From assembly GCA_964016885.1 (NCBI GenBank), contig OZ024741.1, positions 333,622,001 to 333,686,000 of the forward strand: a stretch of 64,000 nt of DNA, written 5' to 3'. Both the position numbers and the translations under genes were made by a program. Positions 1,951 to 51,871 of the stretch are shown here, piece by piece. Under the pieces are notes generated by a model that saw only the letters and a list, made by a program, of their open reading frames with translations, made no database searches and had not been told where the DNA came from. Position 1 is the first letter of the stretch, and every line of letters starts with the position of its first letter. The stretch is from Eledone cirrhosa (Eukaryota).

Positions 1951-4900
1951 AGAAGTTGATATTTGTTGTATTCAAGAGACTAGGTGGAGAGTGGGTTCTG
2001 CCAGATTCATCGTGGGCAAAAAACGATGCTATAAACTTTTCTGGGTGGGAAACGACAATGGACTGGGTGGAGTAGGAATTATGTTAGCTGAACAATGGGT
2101 AGATAAGGTAATCGACGTAAATAGAGTAAATGATAGAATAATTAAAATAAGGCTAGTTCTAAATAAAACTACTGTGACAATAATATCCGCTTATGCACCC
2201 CAAATCTGGTCTACTTGACGTTATAAAGGACAGGTTCTATGAGACGTTAATGCACACTACCTTCCAAATAACCGACAGCGACTACCGAATTATTGCTGGC
2301 GATCTAAACGGCCACGTTGGACAACATAGTGATGGCTATGATGGAATCCATGGAGGCTATGGGGTTGGAAATAGAAATGAGGAAGGCTTCAGAATCCTAG
2401 AATTCTGTGACGCCAATAACCTAACTATCTGTAACACAAACTTCAAAAAACGTGAAAACCACTTGATCACCTATAGATCAGTGGACCACGCCAGCCAGAT
2501 AGATCATATCCTTACTAGAAGACGGGACAAAGTGTCTGTTGTAAACACTAAATCCCTCCCTCATGAAGAATGCACATCCCAACGTAGCCTAGTAGTTAGT
2601 GACCTCACAGTCAGAAATAGACGTACTCGATGACAGAGGAGGCCTACCTTGAGGAGAGGAATATGGAAGTTGAAGGATCCCATAGCCAGTGACAAATTTA
2701 AAAGCTTATTACTTGATGCCTTTGACAAAAAGGAAGAGCAATTAGAGTCGTGCGATATAGAGGAACAATGGCAATTCTTGAAAGTGAACCTGCTGAAAGC
2801 AACGGATGAAATCTATGGCTGGAGCAGACCTATTGGCAGGAGGAGAGTAACTTGGTGGTGGAACAGTAAAGTAGAAGAGACAATCAAGGCCAAAAAGCAG
2901 GCTTGGAAAGTATGGCAGGATGGGGGAAGTAGAGAGCACTATCAAGTGGCCAGGAGAAAAGCTAAGAGATAAGTGTACCTTGCAAAAGGGGAAGCAGAGG
3001 ATAGAAAGTTCAAGCATGTTCTACAACGTGAGGACCAAAATCGCGAGGTGTTCAGGATTGCTGGACAATGTGTCAAGGAAAACCGTGATATTGTCGGGGA
3101 GAAGTGTATCCGTAATGATAATGGTGTACTTGCACTCACTGATACTGATAAGAAGATAGCCTGGAAGTGTCACTACGAGAGACTATTAAATGAGGAGAAT
3201 AAATGGGAAAAAGATAGTCTGCCCCAAATCGATCCAATAAAAGGACCAGCAGTGCAAGTTAAAGGTAGTATAATAAGTAAGGCAATCAAAGATATGAAGA
3301 CAGGCAAGGCAGCTGGGCCTTCGGAGATAGTTGCTGAGATGTTGAAGGCATCTGGAATGGTGGGACATACTATGGTCACCCGTATAGTTAACCAAGTAAT
3401 AGAGAATGGGATCACACCAAAAGACTGGCGTAGCAGCAGAATCATTAACTGCTACAAGGGTAAAGGAGATGCTCTAGATAGAGGAAACTATAGAGGCATT
3501 AAGTTAGTTGCCCAGGTCATGAAGGTCACAGAAAGAGTTATAGTGCAAGTAATCAGAGAGCAAATTGATCTAGATGAAATGTAGTTTGGGTTTGTGTCAG
3601 GTAAAAGTACCACAGATGCTCTTTTCCTTGTACGACAACTACAAGAGAAGTACCTAGCTAAAAGTAAACCTCTCTACTTAGCTTTTGTAGACCTGGAAAA
3701 AGCCTTTGACAGAGTCCCCCGCTCCATTATCTGGTGGACTCTTAGAAAACTAGGTGTAGATGAATGGCTTGTGAGAGCTATACAAGCTATGTATAATGAA
3801 ACAGTCAGTAAGGTTAGAATTAACAATGAATATTGTGAAGAATTTAGTGTAAAAGTTGGTGTTCACCAAGGCTCTGTCCTTAGCCCCCTTCTATTTATTA
3901 TTGCCTTTCAGGCTATAACAGAGGAGTTCAAGACCGGCTGCCCATGGGAACTCCTATACGCAGATGATCTAATGCTCATAGCTGAATCAATGGCTGAACT
4001 ACAAAAGAAATTCCAAACATGGAAGCATGGCCTAGAATCAAAAGGCCTTAAAGTTAACTTGTCTAAGACTAAAGTCATAGTTTGTAGAAAGGTAAATAAG
4101 GCACAGGTACCCTCAGGGAAATGGCCTTGCTCAGTGTGTAGGAAAGAAGTAGGCAGAAATTCAATTTTATGTCCCAAATGCAAAGTACATAAAAGATGTA
4201 GTGGGATCACAGGTAAACAATCTAAGAACGTAGACTTTATGTGGCCGATGCTCAGGTCCAATAGGTAGCAAGTGTCCACAGGATACTAGCCCCTTCTATT
4301 GCCCTGATGGTTCTATAGAAATAGTAGACACTTTCCATTACCTGGGTGACGAAATCAGCAGTGGTGGAGGGTATTCTGAAAGTACAGTAGCCAGAGTCAG
4401 AACGGGATGAAAAAAGTTCAGAGAGCTTATACCGCTGTTGGCCACAAAAGGTTTCTCTCTAAAAATAAAAGGCAATTTGCATGATGCTTGTATACGAACA
4501 GCAATGCTACATGGCAGTGAGACATGGGCATTGCGTGCAGAGGACCTGCGTAGACTGGAAAGGAACGAAGCATGCATGCTCCACTGGATGTGTAATAGTA
4601 ATATACGTGAACGGCAAAGCATAAATGAACTAAATGAGAAATTAGGAATAAGAGGGATCAGATGTCGTTTACTCGAGAGAAGACTACGTTGGTATGGTCA
4701 CGTGATGCACATGAAAGATGACAGCTGTATAAAAAAGTGCAGGGCGATCAAAATTGATGGTAGTTACGGAGTAGGTAAACCCAGAAAAACCTGGGACGAT
4801 CTGATAAATTCCGACCTTACACACTTGCACCTCTCTAAGACAATGTCACTGGACCGAGATCTTTGGCGCTACACAGTAATACAGAAGACACGCCTTGTCT

Positions 4901-5340
4901 GTGTATAAAGTGAAACCTACAGTCAGTAGGCACCTCTTAACCAAATATACACCCCAATCCACTACCCCTACCCTATCCTCCCACTCCCACCAACACCACC
5001 CGCTCTCTATAAAATTGCTAACACAACATCCAGTCCAAATAAATGAGATAAATGAGATCGAGATCGAGATCGAGTTCGTGTAGTTGTTACGAGAAAAAAA
5101 AATACACAGTCCAGGCTATAATGTGGCCGTATAGGTAACACGGTAAAAAGTTCCCAGTTCCACACTGTAAATGTGGTTGGGGTTAGGAAGGGCATCCAGC
5201 CCTAGAAAACCTGCCAGATAGTCCTATATGAGCGAGACATGGTCACCCGACCAACCTTGCCTCAAGTGAGACAACTCCCGTCTAACCCATGTTAGTGTGG
5301 AAAATGGACATTAAACGAAGATAATGATGATGATGATGAT
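1951..5340 (+). mobile_element. 5'-truncated RTE-clade non-LTR retrotransposon inserted in the satellite, ending in a (GAT)n tail
   Basis: Abrupt satellite junctions on both sides. APE and RT motifs are in order. The 3' end reads ...ATTAAACGAAGATAATGATGATGATGATGAT. Confidence 0.93.
1952..4908 (+). pseudogene. Disrupted APE endonuclease/reverse transcriptase ORF of the RTE element
   Basis: Motifs VDICCIQETRW, IISAYAP, IAGDLNGHVG, SQIDHIL, YRGIKL, FVDLEKAFDRV, GVHQGSVLSPLLF, LLYADDL, RLRWYGHV. Stops at ~2631, 2970, 3582 and 4408; frameshifts near 2210 and 4240. Confidence 0.93.
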
Positions 5341-8300
5341 GTGCAACACAACACAGTTCTGTTATATAGTGTACAGCACAACACAGTTCTGTTATATAGT
5401 GTAGTGTACAGCACAACACACAGTTCTGTTATATAGTGTAGTGTGCAACACAACACAGTTCTGTTATATAGTGTAGTGTACAACACAACACAGTTCTGTT
5501 ATATAGTGTAGTGTACAGCACAACACAGTTCTGTTATATAGTGTAGTGTGCAACACAGCACAGTTCTATTATATAGTGCAGTGTACAACACAGCACAGTT
5601 CTGTTATATAGTGTAGTGTACAACACAGCACAGTTCTGTTATATAGTGTAGTGTACAGCACACAGTTCTGTTATATAGTGTAGTGTACAGCACAGCACAG
5701 TTCTGTTATATAGTGTAGTGTACAGCACAACACAGTTCTGTTATATAGTGTAGTGTACAGCACAGTTCTGTTATATAGTGTAGTGTACAGCACAATACAG
5801 TTCTGTTATATAGTGTAGTGTACAGCACAGCACAGTTCTGTTATATAGTTTAGTGTACAGCACACAGTTCTGTTATATAATGTAGTGTACAACACAACAC
5901 AGTTCTGTTATATAGTTTAGTGTACAGCACACAGTTCTGTTATATAGTGTAGTGTACAACATAACACAGTTCTGTTATATAGTGTAGTGTACAGCACAAC
6001 ACACTTCTGTTATATAGTGTAGTGTACAACACAACGCAGTTCTGTTATATAGTGTAGTGTACAACACAACACAGTTCTGTTATATAGTGTAGTGTACAGC
6101 ACAACACAGTTCTGTTATATAGTGTAGTGTACAGCACAGCACAGTTCTGTTATATAGTGTAGTGTACAGCACAACACAGAGTTCTGTTATATAGTGTAGT
6201 GTACAGCACAGTTCTGTTATATAGTGTAGTGTACAACACAACACAGTTCTGTTATATAGTGTAGTGTGCAACACAACACAGTTCTATTATATAGTGTACA
6301 ACACAACACAGTTCTGTTATATAGTGTAGTGTACAACACAACACAGTTCTGTTATATAGTGTAGTGTACAACACAACACAGTTCTGTTATATAGTGTACA
6401 GCACAACACAGTTCTGTTATATAGTGTAGTGTACAACACAGCACAGTTCTGTTATATAGTGTAGTGTACAACACAACACAGTTCTGTTATATAGTGTAGT
6501 GTACAGCACAGCCCAGTTCTGTTATATAGTGTAGTGTACAACACAACACAGTTCTGTTATATAGTGTAGTGTACAGCACAACACAGTTCTGTTATATAGT
6601 GTAGTGTACAGCACAGCACAGTTCTGTTATATAGTGTAGTGTACAGCACAGCACAGTTCTGTTATATAGTGTAGTGTACAGCACAACACAGTTCTGTTAT
6701 ATAGTGTAGTGTACAGCACAGTTCTGTTATATAGTGTAGTGTACAGCGCAACACAGTTCTGTTATATAGTGTAGTGTACAGCACAACACAGTTCTGTTAT
6801 ATAGTGTAGTGAGCAACACAACACAGTTCTGTTATATAGTGTAGTGTACAGCACAACACAGTTCTGTTATATAGTGTAGTGTACAACACAACACAGTTCT
6901 TTTATATAGTGTAGTGTACAGCACAGCACAGTTCTGTTATATAGTGTAGTGTACAGCACAACACAGTTCTATTATATAGTGTAGTGTACAGCACAGCACA
7001 GTTCTGTTATATAGTGTAGTGTACAGCACAACACAGTTCTGTTATATAGTGTAGTGTACAACACAGCACAGTTCTGTAATATAGTGTAGTGTACAACACA
7101 GCACAGTTCTGTTATATAGTGTAGTGTACAGCACAACACAGTTCTGTTATATAGTGTAGTGTACAGCACAGCACAGTTCTGTTATATAGTGTAGTGTACA
7201 GCACAACACAGTTCTGTTATATAGTGTAGTGTACAGCACAGCACAGTTCTGTTATATAGTGTAGTGTACAGCACAACACAGTTCTGTTATATAGTGTAGT
7301 GTACAGCACACAGTTCTGTTATATAGTGTAGTGTACAGCACACAGTTCTGTTATATAGTGTAGTGTACAGCACAGTTCTGTTATATAGTGTAGTGTACAG
7401 CACAGTTCTGTTATATAGTGTAGTGTACAACACAGCACAGTTCTGTTATATAGTGTAGTGTACAGCACAGCACAGTTCTGTTATATAGTGTAGTGTACAG
7501 CACAACACAGTTCTGTTATATAGTGTAGTGTACAGCACAGCACAGTTCTGTTATATAGTGTAGTGTACAGCACAACACAGTTCTGTTATATAGTGTAGTG
7601 TACAGCACAGTTCTGTTATATAGTGTAGTGTACAGCACAGCACAGTTCTGTTATATAGTGTAGTGTACAGCACAACACAGTTCTGTTATATAGTGTAGTG
7701 TACAGCACAGCACAGTTCTGTTATATAGTGTAGTGTACAGCACAACACAGTTCTATTATATAGTGTAGTGTACAGCACAGCACAGTTCTGTTATATAGTG
7801 TAGTGTACAGCACAACACAGTTCTGTTATATAGTGTAGTGTACAGCACAACACAGTTCTGTTATATAGTGTAGTGTACAACACAACACAGTTCTGTTATA
7901 TAGTGTAGTGTACAGCACAGCACAGTTCTGTTATAGAGTGTAGTGTACAGCACAACACAGTTCTGTTATATAGTGTAGTGGACAACACAACACAGTTCTG
8001 TTATATAGTGTAGTGTACAGCACAACACAGTTCTATTATATAGTGTAGTGTGCAACACAACACAGTTCTGTTATATAGTGTAGTGTACAACACACCACAG
8101 TTCTGTTATATAGTGTACAGCACAACACAGTTCTGTTATATAGTGTAGTGTACAACACAGCACAGTTCTGTTATATAGTGTAGTGTACAACACAACACAG
8201 TTCTGTTATATAGTGTAGTGTACAGCACAGCACAGTTCTGTTATATAGTGTAGTGTACAACACAACACAGTTCTGTTATATAGTGTAGTGTACAGCACAA

Positions 8301-10926
8301 CACAGTTCTGTTATATAGTGTAGTGTACAGCACAGCACAGTTCTGTTATATAGTGTAGTGTACAGCACAGCACAGTTCTGTTATATAGTGTAGTGTACAG
8401 CACAACACAGTTCTGTTATATAGTGTAGTGTACAGCACAGTTCTGTTATATAGTGTAGTGTACAGCGCAACACAGTTCTGTTATATAGTGTAGTGTACAG
8501 CACAACACAGTTCTGTTATATAGTGTAGTGAGCAACACAACACAGTTCTGTTATATAGTGTAGTGTACAGCACAACACAGTTCTGTTATATAGTGTAGTG
8601 TACAACACAACACAGTTCTTTTATATAGTGTAGTGTACAGCACAGCACAGTTCTGTTATATAGTGTAGTGTACAGCACAACACAGTTCTATTATATAGTG
8701 TAGTGTACAGCACAGCACAGTTCTGTTATATAGTGTAGTGTACAGCACAGTTCTGTTATATAGTGTAGTGTACAACACAGCACAGTTCTGTAATATAGTG
8801 TAGTGTACAACTCAGCACAGTTCTGTTATATAGTGTAGTGTACAGCACACAGTTCTGTTATATAGTGTAGTGTACAGCACACAGTTCTGTTATATAGTGT
8901 AGTGTACAGCACAGTTCTGTTATATAGTGTAGTGTACAGCACAGTTCTGTTATATAGTGTAGTGTACAACACAGCACAGTTCTGTTATATAGTGTAGTGT
9001 ACAGCACAGCACAGTTCTGTTATATAGTGTAGTGTACAGCACAACACAGTTCTGTTATATAGTGTAGTATACAGCACAGCACAGTTCTGTTATATAGTGT
9101 AGTGTACAGCACAACACAGTTCTGTTATATAGTGTAGTGTACAGCACAGTTCTGTTATATAGTGTAGTGTACAGCACAGCACAGTTCTGTTATATAGTGT
9201 AGTGTACAACACAACACAGTTCTGTTATATAGTGTAGTGTACAACACAACACAGTTCTGTTATATAGTGTAGTGTACAGCACACAGTTCTGTTATATAGT
9301 GTAGTGTACAGCACAGCACAGTTCTGTTATATAGTGTAGTGTACAGCACACAGTTCTGTTATATAGTGTAGTGTACAACACAGCACAGTTCTGTTATATA
9401 GTGTAGTGTACAGCACAGCACAGTTCTGTTATATAGTGTAGTGTACAGCACAGCACAGATTTGTTATATAGTGTAGTGTACAGCAGAACACAGTTCTGTT
9501 ATATAGTGTAGTGTACAACACAGTTCTGTTATATAGTGTAGTGTACAGCACACAGTTCTGTTATATAGTGTAGTGTACAACACAACACAGTTCTGTTATA
9601 TAGTGTAGTGTACAACACAACACAGTTCTGTTATATAGTGTAGTGTACAGCACACAGTTCTGTTATATAGTGTAGTGTACAACACAGCACAGTTCTGTTA
9701 TATAGTGTAGTGTACAGCACAGCACAGTTCTGTTATATAGTGTAGTGTACAGCACAGCACAGATTTGTTATATAGTGTAGTGTACAGCAGAACACAGTTC
9801 TGTTATATAGTGTAGTGTACAACACAGTTCTGTTATATAGTGTAGTGTACAGCACACAGTTCTGTTATATAGTGTAGTGTACAACACAACACAGTTCTGT
9901 TATATAGTGTAGTGTACAACACAACACAGTTCTGTTATATAGTGTAGTGTACAGCACACAGTTCTGTTATATAGTGTAGTGTACAGCACAGCACAGTTCT
10001 GTTATATAGTGTAGTGTACAGCACACAGTTCTGTTATATAGTGTAGTGTACAACACAGCACAGTTCTGTTATATAGTGTAGTGTACAGCACAGCACAGTT
10101 CTGTTATATAGTGTAGTGTACAGCACAGCACAGATTTGTTATATAGTGTAGTGTACAGCAGAACACAGTTCTGTTATATAGTGTAGTGTACAGCACAGCA
10201 CAGTTCTGTTATATAGTGTAGTGTACAACACGACACAGTTCTGTTGTATAGTGTAGTGTACAGCACAGTTCTGTTATATAGTGTAGTGTACAGCACAGTT
10301 CTATTATATAGTGTAGTGTACAGCACAGCACAGTTCTGTTATATAGTGTAGTGTACAGCACAGTTCTGTTATATAGTGTACAGCACAACACTGTTCTGTT
10401 ATATAGTGTAGTGTACAGCACAGCACAGTTCTGTTATATAGTGTAGTGTACAGCACAACACAGAGTTCTGTTATATAGTGTAGTGTTCAGCACAGCACAC
10501 AGTTCTGTTATATAGTGTACAGCACAACACAGAGTTATGCTATATAATGTAGCGTACAGCACAACACAACACAGTTCTGCTATATAGTGTAGTGTACAGC
10601 ACAACACAAAACAGTTATGCTATATAGTGTAGTGTACAGCACAACACAACACAGTTCTGCTATATAGTGTAGTGTACAGCACAACACAAGACAGTTCTAC
10701 TATATAGTGTAGTGTACAGCACAACACAACACAGTTATGCTATATAGTGTAGTGTACAGCACGACACAACACAGTTCTGCTATATAGTGTACAGCACAAC
10801 ACAACACAGTTCTGCTATATAGTGTACAGCACAACACAACACAGTTATGCTATATAGTGTAGTGTACAGCACAACACAACACAGTTCTGCTATATAGTGT
10901 AGTGTACAGCACACAGTTCTGTTATA
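5341..10926. repeat. ~35-bp satellite, right part, with a divergent ~40-bp unit at the distal edge
   Basis: Same monomer as 1-1950. From ~10500 the units carry GCTATAT and an extra ACAAC. Confidence 0.98.
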
Positions 10927-15934: not shown

Positions 15935-15940
<6 letters not shown>

Positions 15941-16582
15941 GGAATAGAATGAAACGAAATTTCATTTCTCACTCTTAGTATGGCACTTACTTAAATGTAA
16001 GTATGTATGTATACGTACATACATATATGTATACAGACGTACAGTAGTATGTATATATATATACATACATGCACACATATATATATCTATGCACGTATCG
16101 GTTTACCGAACATTTATTATAATGCTCGGTTTGTTTGTTTGTAAACAAACAAACAGCCCGAATTACGCCGTACAGTGTTTAGGCAACCACATCACCTTTT
16201 TGTTCAACACTGACACAGGAAAGATGTACTAATTTCAAGCTTATTAGCTATCGTCAGCATCGTATACCTTCCTGCCAGATGGTTGAACGTCTGAAAGTAT
16301 ATACTTTCCTTATGCATATTAACGGCTGAGCAGCCTAATTTGCATATCGAGTGAGTTCAGTCGGCCGGGCGCACCGTAAACGATAAATGGAATAGAATGA
16401 AACGAAATTTCATTTCTCACTCTTAGTACGGCACTTACTTAAATGTAAGTATGTATGTATGTATACGTACATACATATATGTATACAGACGTACAGTAGT
16501 ATGTATATATATACATACATGCACACATATATATATGCACGTATTGGTTTACCGAACATTTATTATAATGCTTGGTTTGTTT
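15935..16582 (-). mobile_element. Retrozyme-like element: ~1.45 copies of a 448-bp unit (~200-bp direct repeats) in (TA)n
   Basis: 15935-16136 is nearly identical to 16383-16582. The interior is non-coding and contains an HHR. Confidence 0.75.
16202..16288 (-). ncRNA. Minimal type I hammerhead ribozyme
   Basis: Minus strand reads GATG-CTGACGA-T-AGCT-AATA-AGCT-T-GAAA-TTA-GTA-CATC. Stem I GATG/CATC extends via AGGAAG/TTTCCT, CTGGCA/TGTCAG and GTTCAAC/GTTGAAC. Confidence 0.8.
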
Positions 16583-17104
16583 ATATATATATAAATATAT
16601 TGGACTCAGAACATCTATATACCACAGAGCATGCTATCAGATGAAATATCTAGTGAAACTTAAAATAACAATTATGTCAAGTGTATCTGTTCAACTGCAT
16701 TGAAACAAATATTTTTTGTATAACTTTTATAATTGTAAAACCTTATTGGATATTGAATACAATCTCATAACAAACTGAAATGTACTCAGAATACAAATAG
16801 TAAATCTCATGAATATGTAAATTCAAAAAGTGTATAAAAAGGTTAAATAGGTTTAGAATTATTGATAGAAAAATTGCACTGGATTTGTTTAGCCCTAGGT
16901 GAGTCCTGATCATAGAGACCTATTTACAAACGTTCAAACCGTGATCAACTCATGCTTCTTTAATCCTTTCATTACTGTATTTTTACAAAAGATACTGCTA
17001 TGAGAATCTTTTTATTGAAATAAACCATGTATGTGAAATATGCTAACAATACAGATAGCATGAAATTACAAACACAAATGTCATAGCTGTCAGAATTTAA
17101 TACA

Positions 17105-27385: not shown

Positions 27386-28241
27386 ATTCGAACTAGAAAC
27401 TCTGTCATCGACACCTAAATACTAATCATTCAGAGTTGTACCAGAAACTAGGTCAGTGATGTGTGATGAAACTTTTTAACAACTCATAGAAGACAACACT
27501 ATGCAGATATAAAGCAAAAAATGAGCATAGTAGATTTTGTGTTTTCTTAAATGGTAACCCTGACTTTTCCATGGTGTATAGAATTCAGAGCAAGTCACTT
27601 GCCAAACAAATACACAAAGACTTATATTTTATTTGATCCTTTAAATAACCCTTTTGATACCAAACTGCCTGAAACTGCCTCTGGTTCTACAACACAAAGC
27701 TGCTTGTTTTAAAGTGTTATTTATCTATAAACCTTCCATCATAATATCATGTAAGGACATTTGTTAAATTTTGTACCAAAAAGCAGCTTAATAATGAGCA
27801 GGTAGATTTTATTTGTCTGGTGGCCATGGCAAAAGACACTTTCTTCTGTGGCCAAAGCCTTCATTGAATTTTCAAGTTTCACTTGAAAAGAAATATGAAG
27901 GTGGAGAGGAAAGTGCTGCTTCCCAGAAAATGTTTTGAATGATAGGCAAGCATGATGTAAGTTAACGGGCTTGTTCTGGGCATTCACCCGTAAATTGGAG
28001 GAGAAGAAGTAAGAAAATCTACTTGCTTTAGTAGTCAGGGGGACTGCGGCTTTTTGAGGAGGTTTTCTAAGAGCAGCCCTTAGAATGCCCCCCCCCCCCT
28101 CTTAATTTAAGGAAATCTTTCTGCTTGAATTTCATTGTTGTTTCATGTTTCTATGAAACCACACAGTACCGTTCTGTAGCGTCCTGAATATGCTTTTTGT
28201 AAACTCTTTGTGATGAATTAATTATCATTATTAAATAGTCA

Positions 28242-28390
28242 TGCTTTGCAGCAAGGAGTTACGACCCTTTATGGTCTGAATTCAAATCCTGCCGAGGTTA
28301 ACTTTGCCTTTCATCATTACGGGGTCGATAAAATAAAGTACCAGTAATACACTGGATTAATTACTGGCCTTGTGCCAAAAGTAGAAACAA
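28242..28390 (+). mobile_element. SINE family B, 5'-truncated, 15-bp TSD
   Basis: ATTATTAAATAGTCA at 28227 and 28390. Confidence 0.9.
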
Positions 28391-30455
28391 TTATTAAATA
28401 GTCAAACAATAACAAAGTTACAGAATGGAATAAAATGGGCTTTAGTGTGTGGGGGAACTCTATAGTACTTTATGTTTTAAGGTCACAATTCATTTCAATA
28501 TTTGAATTTGATGTTTTTAATAAACTCTGCTATTCAGAAAAGGAGAGAGTAGGGATTTGTTAAGAAAATAAAACAGATTATACCATGCTAGTTCTTGAAA
28601 TATGTTTATCAAATTAGTTATTTATGTTACTTTAACCCTTTAGCATTTAAACTGGCCATATCCAGCCAAAATTCTTTCACCTCTTTCTGTTCAAACTGGC
28701 CACTTATACCAATGTTAAGGTATTGTTCTCAAAATAAATAACATCAAAATCTCATAGATTCGATATTATGTGAACTATTATGAAAATACAACAGTAAATA
28801 AGGGTTTCTTATATTATTTTTCCTGGTTTCTGTCAGTAGACTACAGCTGTGTGGAGCACCATCTTGATTTAGTCGATCACATTGACCCCAGTTCTTGTGT
28901 CCCCAAATCTGGTACTTTTTTGCCAACCTCTTTTTTTTTATTTTTAGTGAACTCTAAATTATGAGACATCAACATCAATAAAAATGTAAACACACACACA
29001 CACAGGTATGATATGTTCTGTAGTTTCCATCTACCAAATTTCATTTACAAGGCATTGGTCAAACCAAGACTATAGTAGAAGACACTCAGCAGAACTGAAC
29101 CCCAAAACATTTATTTGTGAAGCAAACTCTTTAACGACACAGCCTTGCCTATGTTTGGAAACAACTAGTCACAGTAGAGACAGACAGGTATGAATTGAAG
29201 AGATTCAATAGAACTGTTGTCTTGGTTGATGACTGAATGAACTGCATTGAATGGTTAATATATTATGCAAGATAAACATATGCAAGGACCTGTGAGTAGG
29301 TGTGACTCATACTGAGGGACTAAATAAAAACTGGCTTTGAATTGGGACTCAAAGGGAAGGGAGATGAAAAAGAAACATTTTTATTCTCGAAAGTTATGGT
29401 TCATAATTGATAAGATAAAAGATAGGGAAATATAGAAGAAAGAGTAGTATAAAATAGCCTCAATCACATTGATACCAAGCTGCCTGAAACCACTTTTAGT
29501 TCTATGCTATAAAACTGTTTGTTTTAAAGTGTTCATACTTATATTAAAATATTTTTAACATAATTTTATGTCAGAAATTTTTTTTATTAAGTTATTTTTA
29601 CACACTCATTCTCATTGTCATTGTTTAGTGTCTGCTTTCCTTATTAGCAAGGGCTAGACTGTCATCAACACACCATATTGGTACTCAAGCAAAGTTACAT
29701 AACTCTAGTATGAGTTCGGGGCATGATCTTCCTTACTTCTACTGAGTGCTGAGACAAGTCACAAAAATGTATCTCATTTACATATGTTCCGCATTCTACC
29801 GGGTGAAAATACCAGGACTTCTCCAGCTGATTCCTCTTCACACTGGCCAGTCAAGACCCCAGGTGTCTTCAGACCCTGTACAGTTAATTTCCTCTATAAA
29901 ATTGGAATGACAGCAGCCTGTCTGAGGAAGAAGCCCTGTGAAGTGTGGAGGCTGTTGCAGCAGGTGTTACTGGCCATTGTCTGCGGTAATATTTTTGCCA
30001 TTTAGTCCACACTGATTCGGTTGAAACACCACTTTGACTTAGGTATAGATTCTGTCACTCTATCCCCTTCCCCCCCTTCTTTTGTTGCTTAACAATCCTT
30101 GCCCTTTCCCTCTTTTTTATTATTATATTTTATTTTTTATTAACTAGTTCTATCAACATTAAAACAATAAACTTTTATGAATTTGTTTCATCACCTTAGT
30201 AATGTTTAGTAAGTTATTTTACTAAATTTCTTAAAATTTTAGATTATGTTTCAAAATTTATGTTTTAATTGATTGAAGCACATTAGCATTACAGTGCATT
30301 TTATTAGGTATCTTCTAACAAAATGTTTAATGGGGTTACATAGACTTGAAGCAGTAATCACATGTAAACCTATTGCTTTTAGTTAAGGTCAGCATAACAT
30401 GTGGATTAAAATCTAAATGAACCCAAACATAATTACTTAATATTAATTAACATAT

Positions 30456-30595
30456 TTGCAGCAAAGAGTTACGTCCCTTTACGGTCTGAGTTCAAATCCT
30501 GCCGAGGTTAACTTTGCCTTACGGGGTCGATAAAATAAAGCACCAGTAATACACTGGGGTAATTGCTGGCCTTGTGCCAAATGTAGAAACAATTA
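30456..30595 (+). mobile_element. SINE family B, 5'-truncated
   Basis: Core and tail present, flanked by TTAATTAA.ATAT. Confidence 0.85.
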
Positions 30596-30740
30596 ATTAA
30601 TATATGATGCTATTCCCCTTTATTTACACCACTAATGACCCTTTGGGGAATACATGAAGGGTACAACATCCTATTTATATCCCCCTATATATCTGAAGCC
30701 TTTTTTACTTACATCTAAAATAGAAATCAATATGTGAGAA

Positions 30741-30943
30741 AGGTCAATCTGACATTCTGATCACTAATGCATAGTAAGGTCATTGTAACTTAGCAGGTGA
30801 CCCTGCTGACCTTGTAGTATTTACCTACAACTAAGGTCACACTGACCTTTTCGATGACTAAGGTGTATTGCGCAGTATTAATACACAAATGCAATATGAA
30901 CTGTTTAAGTTAATCGACTTAATTTTTCATGTCATAATGACCT
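30741..30943. promoter_or_regulatory. Cluster of ERE-type IR3 palindromes
   Basis: AGGTCAatcTGACAT (30741), perfect AGGTCAcacTGACCT (30834), ATGTCAtaaTGACCT (30929). Confidence 0.5.
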
Positions 30944-33754
30944 ATAGGAGATCTGAATCACATATATATATATATTGAAGCCATGTGACTATAATTATTA
31001 TTATTTCTTAAGTTTCCAAATATTAATATATGTATTATGGAATCAACTGTTTTGCAAATTAGTTTTATGCTATTCAGTTACAAGTCAGGATGATCTTAAA
31101 ACTTAATAGATGCTCTCTCTCTAGACAACAGCAGAAAGGCCAAGGAAAAGAGTTTTAGTATCTTGGAGCAAATCTTGTTAAGTTTTTCAATTCCACATTA
31201 TGGAGGCTGGTTTAAAATATCATTCAACTTTGGTAATCAAATAAAGATGTCATATTGAATTGGGTTAGCAATTTTCTATAAGCACTTTGATTGACCAATG
31301 GAAAATAAACTGAAGTATGATTTTGAAAGAAATGTCAGATAATTCTAGCCACAGTCAATAATTTCCAAATCTATTTTGTATCAAAATGGCTGACATTACA
31401 GTGAATGTAACTATGCTGTTATGATAAAAGTTTCTTCAGAATAAAAGAAAAAGAAAAAAAAGAAAGAAGAAATGTTTTCCCTTTGAACCAGGGAACAATT
31501 GACATCTTCAGTAATATATGTTTCTGTATGCATGCTAAATTAGACCACTTGGGACAATTGTTCTCGTGTGAGAATGCTACTCATCTTCATTTTCACAGAT
31601 ATAACACACTCTCGATGACATTTGCCTTTCATCCTTACGGGGTCGATAAAATAAAGTGCCAGTAGTACACTGGAATAATTGCTGGCCTTGTGCCAAAAGT
31701 AGAAACAATTATTTCAAAGAAAGCTTCTCTCTCCCTCTCTATCTCTCTCTCTGTTCATTGGAACACTCTCAGTCATACTCTGCCCTCCTCTCTCTAAAGA
31801 AACATACACTTATGTTGCCATACCCACCACAAATGCTGTAGTTACTGATATCTATCCTTTCACATCTATAACAATACATCTTCCCTATAGCAGCTATTAC
31901 TAGTTGAAAAAAAAATAATAATAAAACTATAAAAAAAAAAATATTTGAGAAATCTATTCTTTTCCTTTCTCTCTCAGAACATGCTTGTCTTCCCTTTTAC
32001 ATCCTACCTGATCATTAACAATCATTAATTATTTCATTTTAGCATGGTAGATTGGCAGTATCATTAGAGTGTAGGACAAAATACTTTGTGGTGTTTAGTT
32101 ATGACTTTCTATATTCTGAGTTCAAATCCTGCTGATGTCACCTTTGCCTTTCAGCTGTCTAAGTAAGCTTTGCCTTCTTAATAACTGAGGAGATATGAAA
32201 ATCATTTTAAGTCCAGAGTTGATTTACAACTCCTATTCAAATAGAGACATGTATTAACTCTTTTTATGTCACATTTCTAAAGAAAAAATAGTTTGGAAGA
32301 ATTTGGAGGAATTTAATAAACCAACTTTTCCAATTACTAATCCTTTTCTTACCATATTTCTAACAAAATACATTGCCCATCTGTACAAAATACATTGCCC
32401 ATTCATTTCGAAAATAGTCAAGGATTTGTAGGATTCAGTAAAATAATATTCTTATTATTTATCTTGGGCGATGTATTGGCTGCATTGGGAAAGGGTTGAA
32501 CATGTTTTGTGGCATATAGTTACGTCCTTTATGTTCTGTGTTCTAATCCCACTGAGATTTGATTTGCTTTTCATCCTCGTGGAGTTGATAAAATAAAGCT
32601 CCAGGAACACATTAGGATCGATTTAATGGACTTTCTTTTTCCCAAATAATTGTGAGCCTTGTGCCTAAATCAGAAATCATTATTCACCGCAAATCACTGA
32701 ATTTAACCAGTTTTAACCTTTTTGTGACTGAGATTGTAATGAAATACACTGTATTTTAATTAATTAATTATTCAATTAATTAAGAATTTTAAGGCATTTA
32801 CAACAATTGTCAATTATTTCATTACTCAGTAACTAAACATATGGTTCGTATATAAAATTATGCTGAAAGATTTGAATTTAAATAGGAACCCTCTAAAATG
32901 GATGGTTATTTTCAGAGAGCCAGAGCTTGATTTAGCCATATTTGAACTAATCTTTCCCAAACATCTTCTGGTTGTATGATATAAAACCTCTCATTTTGAA
33001 ATGTCTATATTTAAATTAACACTTTCTATCATAATTTTATGCAAGAATTTTTTGTTAAGTTCCAGCCACCAACTTATTAAAATATTAATTCTTTCACTAA
33101 ATTATTCCAAATTGTTTTGCTCAGGTGTTTTATATTTCATTAACTGAACACTTTTAAAGGAAGTTTCAGTTCATTGAATGTTTTTCTACATGCACCATAT
33201 TCTGATTGTGAGACTGTATTTATGAGTGTGTGTGTATGTGTGTGTGTATATACACACACACACATCATCCTCATCGTCATCATCATCCCTGTTTAACGTC
33301 GATTTTCTATGTTAGCATGGAAAACAAGTCAGATCAGATGACCATGTCTTTCTCACACAGAACTGTTTCTGGCTTAGTTTCTACAAGTGGATGCCATTGC
33401 TAATGCTAACCACATTTACAGTGTGGACTGGGTGCCTTTGTGAATGTGGTTGGCATTATGAAGGGCATCTGAGAAAGGAACATGGCTTAGTGGTTAGAGA
33501 GTTGGATTCACAATCGTGAGCTTGTAAGTTTCATTCCTGGAATTGTGTCTTTGACACAATATATATATATATATATATGTGTGTGTGTTCTTTTACTCAT
33601 ATCAGTCATGAGACTGTGGCAATGCTGAGGCACCAGCTTGAAGGAACTTAGTCAATCATATCAACCCTGATACTTATTTTCTCATGGCTGGAACATTCAT
33701 CACTTTTGTTGAATTGCATGGGCACACATATATATATATTTTTTGCTTAGAAAG

Positions 33755-38141: not shown

Positions 38142-38422
38142 TCATCATCATCATCATCATCATCACCGTTTTACGTCGATTCTTCCACACTAGCATGGGT
38201 TAGACCGGTTGTCCTGTTGTGGGCAATGTTAGGTCGGCTTACCTTGTCTTGCTCATACAGGAACTAATTTTGGCTTGATTTCTACAGCTGGATGCCCTTC
38301 CTAACACCAACCTTATTTACAGTGAGTGCTGGGTGCTCTTTTTCTGTGGTGCCTACACGTCCACTTTACAGTGTGGGCTGGGTGCTTTTTTGCCGTGGCA
38401 CCTCCATGACCACTTTGCAGTG
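38142..38422 (-). mobile_element. SINE family A, 5'-truncated
   Basis: (CAT)n tail and GCTGGATGCCCTTCCTAACACC. Confidence 0.85.
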
Positions 38423-43508: not shown

Positions 43509-43554
<46 letters not shown>

Positions 43555-43700
43555 ATTATGTTATATATATATATATATATATATATTTTATATATATATA
43601 TGTACATATATATATAAGTAGAAGTGGTATTTAATTTGTTGGAAGTCCGACAAACATTAATGTTTATAACTGATTTAGAGCACTCAACATGGGTATGTCT

Positions 43701-43807
43701 CTATTTATAAAACAAACTTTGTATTTTATCTGATGAAAGTGTACCAATGTTGTCTTGGTTACCCTTGAAATATATATAATAAAATAAATATGGTTTTATA
43801 AATATAG
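43701..43807 (+). ncRNA. Type I hammerhead ribozyme motif
   Basis: TATTTTAT-CTGATGA-AAGTGTACCAA-tgttgtc-TTGGTTACCCTT-GAAA-TATATA-TA-ATAAAATA. Outer stem TATTTATAAAAC/GTTTTATAAATA. Confidence 0.75.
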
Positions 43808-43876
43808 TTTCCATTTATTTAATATAATCATCATCATCATCATCCTCGTTTAATGTCCACTTTCCACGCTAGCATC

Positions 43877-43939
<63 letters not shown>

Positions 43940-44186: not shown

Positions 44187-44493
44187 CCCACACTGTAAAT
44201 GTGGTTGGTGTTAGGAAGGGCATCCAACTGTAGAAAACCTGCCAGACAGTCCTATGCGAGCAAGACAATCACTCTTGCCTCAAGTGGGACTACCCCCGTC
44301 CAAACCCATGCAAGCGTGGAACACGGACGTTAAACGTTGATGATGATGATGATGATATACAAGCCAGAATCAGTTCCAGTATGAGCAAGACAAGGTCAGC
44401 CAACCTAACATTGCCCACAACAGGACAACCCGTCTAACCCATGCTAGAATGGAAGAACGGACGTAAAACGGTGATGATGATGATGATGATGAT
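44187..44493 (+). mobile_element. Two tandem SINE/LINE 3' tails
   Basis: 44187-44355 matches 5160-5340. 44361-44493 matches the family A tail. Confidence 0.8.
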
Positions 44494-51086: not shown

Positions 51087-51871
51087 TCGAAAGGTTGTGA
51101 GTTCAATTCTTGGACCGGGTGATGTGTTGTTTCCTTGAGCAAGACACTTTATTTCACATTGCTCCAGTTTACTCAACTGTAGAAATGAGATGATAGGACT
51201 GGGGTCCCTATCATACCACTGCAAAAGTGGTCGTGGAGGTGCCACGGCAAAAAAGCACCCAGCCCACACTGTAAAGTAGATGTGTAGGCGCCACGGGAAA
51301 AAAGCACTCAGTACTCACTGTAAATGAGGTTTGTGTTAGGAAGGGCATCCAGCTGTAGAAATCAAGCTAGAATCAGTTCCCATATAAGCAAGACAAGGTC
51401 AGCCGACCGGACACTGCCCACAACAGGACAATCCGTCTAACCCATGCTAGCATGGAAAACGGACGTAAAACGATGATGATGATGATGATGATGATGATAT
51501 ATATATATATATATATATATATCGTATGGAGGCACATGGCTTAGTGGTTAGAGAATTGGCCTTTCAATCGAAAGGTTGTGAGTTCAATTCTCAGACCGGG
51601 TGATGTGTTGTGTCCTTGAGCAAGACACTTTATTTCACATTGCTCCAGTTTACTCAGTTGTAGAAATGAGATGATAGGGACTGGAGTCCCTATCATTCCA
51701 CTGCAAAGTGGTCGTGGAGGTGCCCTGGCAAAAAAAGCACCCAGCACTCACTGTAAATGAGGTTGGTGTTAGTAAGGGCATCCAGCTGTAGAAATCAAGC
51801 CAGAATCAGTTCCCGTCCCACCCTTGCAAGCAGGGAAAAGTGGACGTAAAATGAAATGATGAATGATGATG

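What the first reader, a model, noticed from the sequence alone, without database searches (positions are those of the whole stretch)
43617..43825. Second, unrelated, complete hammerhead motif in a (TA)n-embedded insert
Seen on the plus strand: 8-bp stem I (TATTTTAT/ATAAAATA), CTGATGA, an imperfect ~10-bp stem II, GAAA, self-complementary TATATA in place of stem III, an AUA cleavage triplet (cut after 43778), and a further 12-bp outer helix. It shares no primary sequence with the 16.2-kb HHR outside the core. Inference: at least two distinct HHR-bearing families target TA tracts here.
Basis: partly seen in the sequence, partly recalled or inferred. Interest (0 to 1): 0.7.

Follow-up and report, generated by a model that had tools for sequence, protein, structure and literature searches.

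The report
Hammerhead in Penelope-type repeat fragment
A hammerhead self-cutting RNA motif sits in a short repeat found in many copies in related animal DNA; it is likely the leftover end of a Penelope-type jumping gene and is predicted to cut only when two copies pair up, an arrangement that is already well known.

Summary
The motif is there as described and is not chance: 0 of 100,000 shuffles of the insert match it. Public reads show a dispersed repeat family: 6,481 contigs in one run, about 28,000-31,000 reads in each of two others, 47 contigs in a second organism. Among the best-supported variants, 0 of 13 core positions vary against 10 of 24 unpaired ones, and 8 of 9 changes in helices keep or can restore pairing. 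The insert is not one unit. 43617-43689 is an inverted piece of the family's downstream end, fused head-to-head to the hammerhead part (43691-43825). Two 3' end points, inversion, partial tandems and TA-adjacent ends match published Penelope-like element (PLE) insertions. Helix III is an 8-nt palindrome with no predicted monomer pairing, so cleavage would need a dimer, as published for animal PLE hammerheads. No PLE protein gene was found, so autonomous PLE versus non-autonomous retrozyme is open. Cleavage and transcription are untested, and Rfam gives no hammerhead hit. The 16.2-kb hammerhead is unrelated in sequence. Verdict: real, a new member of a known kind.

The parts
43513..43616 (.). 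Imperfect (TA)n tract, the likely insertion target; abuts the outer 3' end of the inverted piece
   Evidence: period 2, 52.5 copies, 86% matches
43617..43689 (-). Inverted piece: last 73 nt of the family's longer 3' end. In other copies it follows 43825 after a 24-nt spacer, in the opposite orientation to the window
   Evidence: opposite-strand joint 43689/43825 in 7 contigs of X1, 180 reads (41 starts) of X6, 160 reads (35 starts) of X7; spacer read by eye from loose ends in X1 and X5 and between-letters in X6
43691..43825 (+). 5'-truncated hammerhead-bearing copy, ending at the family's nearer 3' end point
   Evidence: loose ends before 43688/43702 show a different natural upstream sequence; loose ends and joints behind 43819/43825
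43702..43804 (+). Outer 12-bp helix (43702-43713 with 43793-43804) closing the hammerhead domain
   Evidence: 12 of 12 pairs; probability 0.90-1.0; 1 of 24 positions varies in the rows shown
43722..43786 (+). Type I hammerhead: stem I 43722-43729/43779-43786
   Evidence: both listed variants are A>G opposite T, which keeps a wobble pair
43730..43736 (+). Core C3-A9 (CUGAUGA)
   Evidence: no variant among the rows shown table 3; a loose-end consensus in X1 shows C at the free position 7
43737..43766 (+). Stem-loop II: 10 pairs, mismatch at 43740/43763 (C x C in about 88% of reads), bulge at 43759-43760 (one T missing in many copies), variable 7-nt loop
43767..43778 (+). GAAA core, 8-nt palindrome 43770-43777 (predicted intermolecular helix III), AUA triplet; predicted cut 43778/43779
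   Evidence: the common 43774 A>G variant still forms a self-duplex (-2.2 vs -3.2 kcal/mol)
43827..43875 (.). (ATC)n end of a different, common repeat; not part of the hammerhead element
   Evidence: about ten other matches in the window at E < 1e-3
43879..43938 (.). (TA)30 tract beyond that repeat fragment
15935..16595 (-). Comparison element: second type I hammerhead (about 16223-16261; 4-bp stem I, U.U at the base of stem II, short helix III) between about 213-nt direct repeats, ending at a TA tract at 15937

Best explanation
The insert is a two-piece, head-to-head fragment of a multicopy repeat that carries a type I hammerhead motif; it is likely the truncated 3' end (pseudo-LTR plus tail) of a Penelope-type retroelement, likely pasted at the edge of a TA tract, and its ribozyme is predicted to cut only as a dimer. 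Shown: motif, multicopy family, pattern of variation, inversion, two 3' end points about 97 nt apart, short partial tandems and TA-adjacent ends in other copies. Inferred: a PLE reverse transcriptase/GIY-YIG endonuclease nicked AT-rich DNA and primed cDNA on both strands at two internal sites of the element RNA. One strand copied 73 nt from the far site, the other 135 nt from the near site, and the two 5'-truncated ends were joined at 43689/43691. In tandem parent transcripts two hammerheads would pair through the AU palindrome to form helix III and cut after AUA, trimming precursor RNA. This single truncated copy has no partner of its family in the window and is likely inert. Whether the parent encodes its own proteins is open.
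For: Motif beyond chance. Family: 6,481 contigs in X1, 27,684 and 30,778 reads in X6 and X7, 47 contigs in X5 (organism B); 4 runs, 3 studies. Constraint: 0 of 13 core versus 10 of 24 unpaired positions vary (Fisher p 0.007); 9 of 60 paired positions vary, 6 keeping a pair alone, 2 restored by a partner change of similar frequency, 1 breaking. A second stem II version seen as loose ends before 43766 in all 4 runs (the long form in X6 and X7) pairs fully except the same C x C mismatch, with three two-sided changes (table 7, read by eye). Architecture: inversion joint and 'goes back 29/51' partial-tandem joints match the published PLE pattern of inverted 5'-truncated copies, partial tandems, a tail at one end and (TA)n bias (PMC8557442). 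Two internal RT start sites, extension of both strands and AT-rich cleavage were shown in vitro for a lizard PLE (PMC11167929). Small palindromic helix III and dimer cleavage are published for animal PLE hammerheads (PMC4209133; review PMC6765202).
Against: No PLE reverse transcriptase or GIY-YIG gene: 0 of 103 filtered frames of 62 aa or more in 10.9-57.5 kb (the RT hit at 3585-4265 lies beside an AP-endonuclease frame, so it is LINE-type). Sequence upstream of the hammerhead in full elements was not seen beyond 30 letters. The extension is about 97 nt, against 30-40 nt published for PLE tails. No target-site duplication or empty site seen. All 5 ATGs in the two pieces close within 12 codons, unlike the lizard PLE whose ORF starts in stem II. 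It lacks the G10.1-C11.1 pair and extra nucleotide of the PLE minimal consensus. No Rfam hammerhead hit; folding energy not significant. 53 of 93 variant rows were hidden, so minor core variants are not excluded, and the phase of two-sided changes is not shown. RAD reads over-weight a few loci. In the lizard PLE the hammerhead was dispensable for insertion in vitro and no RNA ends were found at its cut site.
Confidence: 0.68

Rival explanations
1. The family is a non-LTR retrozyme: an ORF-less unit of a few hundred bases, kept in head-to-tail arrays, cut by tandem hammerheads into circular RNA and re-inserted by PLE proteins in trans. This locus would be a scrambled monomer.
For: No ORF after the hammerhead; type I hammerhead, low GC; joint 43825 to 43617 across CG(TA)n in 22 and 13 reads could be a tandem of the window-type unit; monomers are common in retrozyme families and derive from PLE ends (bioRxiv 10.64898/2026.07.22.740005).
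Against: No tandem of this unit in the window. The 43825/43617 joint equally fits two 3' ends facing each other across a TA tract. Inversion and two fixed 3' ends are PLE insertion signs. The long stem II and absent monomer helix III resemble PLE-type rather than canonical retrozyme hammerheads. This rival differs from the best reading mainly in autonomy.
Confidence: 0.22
2. It is a hammerhead-bearing SINE-like retroposon moved by a non-PLE machinery (LINE), with the inversion made by twin priming or later rearrangement.
For: The window holds LINE remains and many SINE-like repeats with simple-repeat ends; hammerhead SINEs exist in schistosomes (review passages).
Against: The inverted piece comes from downstream of the other piece's end, whereas twin priming inverts upstream sequence (recalled). 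Two defined 3' ends and partial tandems fit PLEs. No tRNA-like head seen in the insert.
Confidence: 0.06
3. This particular copy is a host-kept, functional ribozyme acting on a host transcript at this locus.
For: Core and all helices are intact in this copy.
Against: It lies among microsatellites and repeat fragments with no host gene frame detected nearby; it differs from the family by only a few letters, which is enough to explain an intact core; no monomer helix III is predicted.
Confidence: 0.03
4. The motif is a chance product of AT-rich sequence.
For: Stem I, the outer helix and the palindrome are almost all A and T; no Rfam hit; folding z-scores not significant.
Against: 0 of 100,000 insert shuffles and 0 in 150 window shuffles match it; structure-respecting variation across copies and two organisms.
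Confidence: 0.01

Closest known systems
Type I hammerheads with small palindromic helix III in pseudo-LTRs of endonuclease-positive Penelope-like elements (Cervera and de la Pena 2014, PMC4209133; parts 1-2 of 4 read)
   Same: Type I topology, full core, long helix II with an irregularity, palindromic 15.2-16.2 region, mostly single dispersed motifs from truncated elements, several families per genome.
   Different: A-U (G.U in about 27% of reads) instead of G10.1-C11.1; no extra nucleotide after A9; 8-bp stem I plus a 12-bp outer helix against 4-5 bp; C x C mismatch in stem II; no ORF linked here.
Insertion anatomy of EN+ PLEs (Craig et al. 2021, PMC8557442, passages; Frangieh et al. 2024, PMC11167929, parts 1-2 of 4)
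   Same: 5' truncation, inverted adjacent copy, partial tandems, an extension at one end only, AT-rich or (TA)n targets.
   Different: Extension about 97 nt rather than 30-40 nt; clade (Penelope/Poseidon, Neptune, Nematis, Hydra) cannot be assigned without the protein; Naiads share the TA bias but lack canonical hammerheads.
Animal non-LTR retrozymes (Cervera and de la Pena 2020, PMC7229834, passages; Li, Clavereau and Pollet 2026 preprint, part 1 of 5 and passages)
   Same: Short, ORF-less, low-GC, type I hammerhead, high copy number, monomers dispersed.
   Different: No head-to-tail array or circular RNA shown; this copy is an inverted two-piece insertion.

Membership tests
Hammerhead ribozyme, type I | Core C3 U4 G5 A6 N7 G8 A9, G12 A13 A14 A15, U16 H17 (criteria in PMC3088659) | tested here: met
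   0 of 13 core positions among variant rows shown
Hammerhead ribozyme, type I | Pairs next to the core in stems I, II and III; open end in stem I | tested here: met
   U-A, A10.1-U11.1, A15.1-U16.1 (the last stable only between two molecules)
Hammerhead ribozyme, type I | Match to an Rfam hammerhead model | tested here: not met
   (150 of 160 rows shown); the 16.2-kb motif is missed too, so the models seem insensitive to this variant type
Hammerhead ribozyme, type I | Self-cleavage 3' of H17 | not testable with these tools
   needs an in vitro assay
PLE-type dimer hammerhead | Very short palindromic helix III/loop 3 | tested here: met
   8-bp self-duplex; monomer pairing probability 0.0
PLE-type dimer hammerhead | G10.1-C11.1 pair and unpaired nucleotide after A9 (consensus traits) | tested here: not met
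   A-U or G.U at that pair, no extra base; atypical variants are also described in that paper
Penelope-like element (EN+) | ORF with PLE reverse transcriptase and GIY-YIG endonuclease | tested here: inconclusive
   none in 103 frames of the window, expected for a truncated copy; full elements could not be fetched
Penelope-like element (EN+) | Partial tandem or inverted 5'-truncated insertions | tested here: met
   tables 5, 5c, 7
Penelope-like element (EN+) | 30-40 nt tail at one end | tested here: inconclusive
   an extension at one end exists but measures about 97 nt (read by eye)
Penelope-like element (EN+) | Insertion bias to AT-rich or (TA)n DNA | tested here: inconclusive
   left end at a TA tract; other copies end in CG(TA)n; right end here at (ATC)n; no empty site or genome-wide count
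Non-LTR retrozyme | Head-to-tail tandem units each with a hammerhead | tested here: inconclusive
   none in the window; one ambiguous joint in reads
Non-LTR retrozyme | Abundant linear and circular RNA of unit length | not testable with these tools
   no RNA run was available to lay

The most novel reading that the evidence does not exclude
An ORF-less, microsatellite-seeking hitchhiker of Penelope proteins with its own hammerhead subtype: A-U base of stem II, a C x C mismatch kept across two otherwise divergent stem II versions, a 12-bp closing helix and a tail of about 97 nt. Its dispersed single copies would cut only when transcripts from different loci pair through the AU palindrome, making cleavage depend on the family's total RNA level.
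Probability: 0.12. Interest if true: 0.55.

Novelty: new member of a known kind. Interest (0 to 1): 0.25.

Why it matters
It adds one family to a known class. Its modest value: the family is missed by Rfam, varies enough to show which pairs are kept, and records two fixed 3' ends and an inversion, so it could test the two-start-site model of Penelope insertion and the still open question of what PLE hammerheads do. I found no description of hammerhead-bearing PLE ends in octopus in three searches of the library. The giant squid paper lists 235 Rfam hammerhead-1 hits without analysis (PMC6962438, passage), and an Octopus vulgaris repeat annotation lists 31 recently active Penelope-like families without the word ribozyme (PMC13282606, passages). 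The host being a cephalopod is my recalled impression of the repeat landscape and comes from no call. Repeat libraries and supplements that I did not see may already hold this family.

Tried and rejected
No whole genome is held, so no genome-wide alignment. Pattern scans for the hammerhead and its 3' part: 0 matches in metagenome contigs, viral contigs (27, 42) and genome contigs (28, 43). No RNA holder listed. No other copy in the window. Rfam: no hammerhead. No covariance model was built: no aligned copies were available as loci. A 13-nt likeness between the two elements' ends next to TA (12 of 13, E 0.2) was considered as a shared 3' signal and dropped: not above chance, and most reads differ at 43817. 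Read ends piling up at 43633 were rejected as an element boundary: a TTAA site lies at 43631-43634 and reads crossing it mostly carry a change there, which fits a RAD restriction cut (enzyme identity recalled). The inverted piece folds no better than shuffles (z -0.03). Exact look-up of the window's DDE frame for host clues found nothing. Earlier-finding look-ups by sequence and place were blank or irrelevant. Lunse et al. on dimer cleavage is not held; known only through a review's passages. PMC12602865 gave nothing on targets. One search gave only a listing; that AUA is a permitted triplet rests on the H17 rule. Summed contig depth was not used as a copy number.

Full report
Context. The window is AT-rich, repeat-laden animal-type DNA: satellites, microsatellites, LINE remains at 2-5 kb and a DDE transposase at 11-12 kb. 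It reminds me of octopus genomes; that is recall and was used only to choose search words. No whole genome is held.

Observation. A type I descriptor finds two motifs in 64 kb, this one and one at 16257 on the minus strand. In 150 block-wise dinucleotide shuffles of the window there were 14 relaxed hits in all and none with an 8-bp stem I; in 100,000 shuffles of the insert, 9 relaxed hits and none as good. Against this, folding energy is ordinary (z 0.49; z -1.47) and Rfam has no hammerhead match here (4 matches to E 10) or at 16.2 kb. The two elements are no more alike than shuffles (89 of 300 and 269 of 300).

It is a repeat family. Laying 4 of the 8 listed runs on 43617-43826 at 80% likeness gave 6,481 contigs (X1, organism A), 47 contigs (X5, organism B), 27,684 reads (X6) and 30,778 reads (X7), from three studies. 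These are not copy numbers, and RAD reads over-weight some loci, but variants begin at up to 223 places and span four identity bands, so there are many loci. X1 may be related to the window's own source. The tool showed 40 of 93 variant rows; I classed the 28 that lie at 43700-43817. Variable positions within 43702-43804: core 0 of 13, unpaired 10 of 24, paired 9 of 60, palindrome interior 1 of 6 (core versus unpaired p 0.007; paired versus unpaired p 0.018; reads are not independent events). Of the 9 paired changes, 6 keep a pair alone, 2 are restored by a partner change (43742 T>C 29-35% with 43761 A>G 37-42%; 43765 T>C 10% with 43738 A>G 8-11%; phase not shown) and 1 breaks a pair (43705). 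Indels listed fall mostly in loop II, the stem II bulge and the linker. Position 43740 is C in 88% of reads, so the family has a C x C mismatch at the fourth step of stem II. A second stem II version appears as loose ends before 43766; read by eye from the X6 and X7 consensus, it pairs throughout except the same C x C, with two-sided changes at three pairs. Its own CUGANGA lies outside the 30 letters shown, so that register is inferred.

The insert is two pieces. An opposite-strand joint between 43689 and 43825 is seen in 7 contigs of X1, 180 reads of X6 and 160 reads of X7. Loose ends in X1 and X5 and between-letters in X6 give a 24-nt spacer, so the natural order is hammerhead, 43825, spacer, then the reverse complement of 43689 to 43617. 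Other copies stop at 43825 and run into CG and TA repeats. The family thus has two 3' end points, about 47 and 144 nt after the predicted cut. Natural upstream sequence departs from the window at about 43690. The window copy is therefore a head-to-head fusion of two 5'-truncated pieces with 3' ends facing outward: left into the TA tract, right into the (ATC)n end of another repeat. Joints that go back 29 or 51 letters (6-20 reads per run) show short partial tandems. A joint from 43825 to 43617 across CG(TA)n (22 and 13 reads) is either a tandem of this fused unit or two ends meeting in a TA tract.

How it likely works. In the monomer, the outer helix (0.90-1.0) and most of stem II (about 0.9) are predicted, stem I is marginal (0.31-0.38) and helix III is absent (0.0); two copies can pair through the 8-nt palindrome, and the common 43774 A>G variant still pairs. 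This is the published behaviour of animal PLE hammerheads: no monomer cleavage and low dimer cleavage for a schistosome motif (PMC4209133), dimer requirement in a review (PMC6765202). The insertion shape matches EN+ PLEs: 5' truncation, inverted adjacent copy, partial tandems, tail at one end, (TA)n bias (PMC8557442). A lizard PLE protein nicks AT-rich DNA, extends both strands and starts at two internal RNA sites (PMC11167929), which would give two outward-facing ends as seen here. That paper also found the hammerhead protein-assisted, dispensable for insertion in vitro, and without RNA ends at the cut site, so the role of cleavage stays uncertain. All mechanism steps are inferred; nothing here shows transcription or cleavage.

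What does not fit or is open. No PLE protein frame was found among 103 filtered frames, no ATG in the pieces stays open past 12 codons, the extension is about 97 nt rather than 30-40, and the G10.1-C11.1 pair is absent. Six collection scans found no copy, so full elements were not seen. The element works like a PLE end (confidence about 0.68; about 0.9 with retrozymes included, which are thought to derive from PLE ends), but membership in a PLE clade is not established.

Literature seen. Sections read: PMC4209133 parts 1-2 of 4; PMC11167929 parts 1-2 of 4; the 2026 retrozyme preprint part 1 of 5 plus passages. Passages only: PMC8557442, PMC7229834, PMC6765202, PMC3088659, PMC13282606, PMC6962438, PMC12602865. 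No supplements were opened; consensus sequences in them or in repeat libraries may include this family. Searches listed no paper describing hammerhead-bearing PLE ends in octopus.

Verdict. Observation confirmed; interpretation partly supported; new member of a known kind; interest 0.25.

Noticed in passing
window:15935-16595 (-): Second type I hammerhead with U.U at the base of stem II and a 6-nt imperfect palindrome, inside a roughly 448-nt unit present about 1.5 times (direct repeats 15935-16149 and 16383-16595), ending at a TA tract; looks like a partial tandem of a retrozyme or PLE end.
   Followed up: partly
window:43827-43875 and about ten other places (e.g. 5289-5337, 38147-38196, 44308-44356, 51444-51492): Common repeat ending in (ATC)n; 2 of 6 strict matches have a TA tract directly beside the ATC run.
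   Followed up: partly
window:43242-43381: 140-nt imperfect inverted repeat (77% self-match), MITE-like or fold-back, about 240 nt left of the insert.
   Followed up: no
window:40568-41159: Three near-identical 196-nt tandem units (98%), each with a weak tRNA-like match on the minus strand (23 bits, below threshold; ARAGORN finds no gene); likely a tandem of a tRNA-derived SINE.
   Followed up: partly
window:2184-4908 (+): Broken LINE (AP endonuclease and RT frames) inserted in a 35-bp satellite array (1-1950 and 5340-10926).
   Followed up: no
window:11273-12370 (-): DDE transposase and HTH frames, Tc1/mariner-like by domain content.
   Followed up: no
window:61741-64000: 48-bp tandem array, 97% matches, with extreme strand skew and open Thr/Pro-rich frames.
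   Followed up: no
loose ends before 43763 (X6, X7): A third stem II version (about 1,800 reads per run, agreement 0.66) joins the same GAAA and 3' part, suggesting several subfamilies that share the 3' half of the hammerhead.
   Followed up: no
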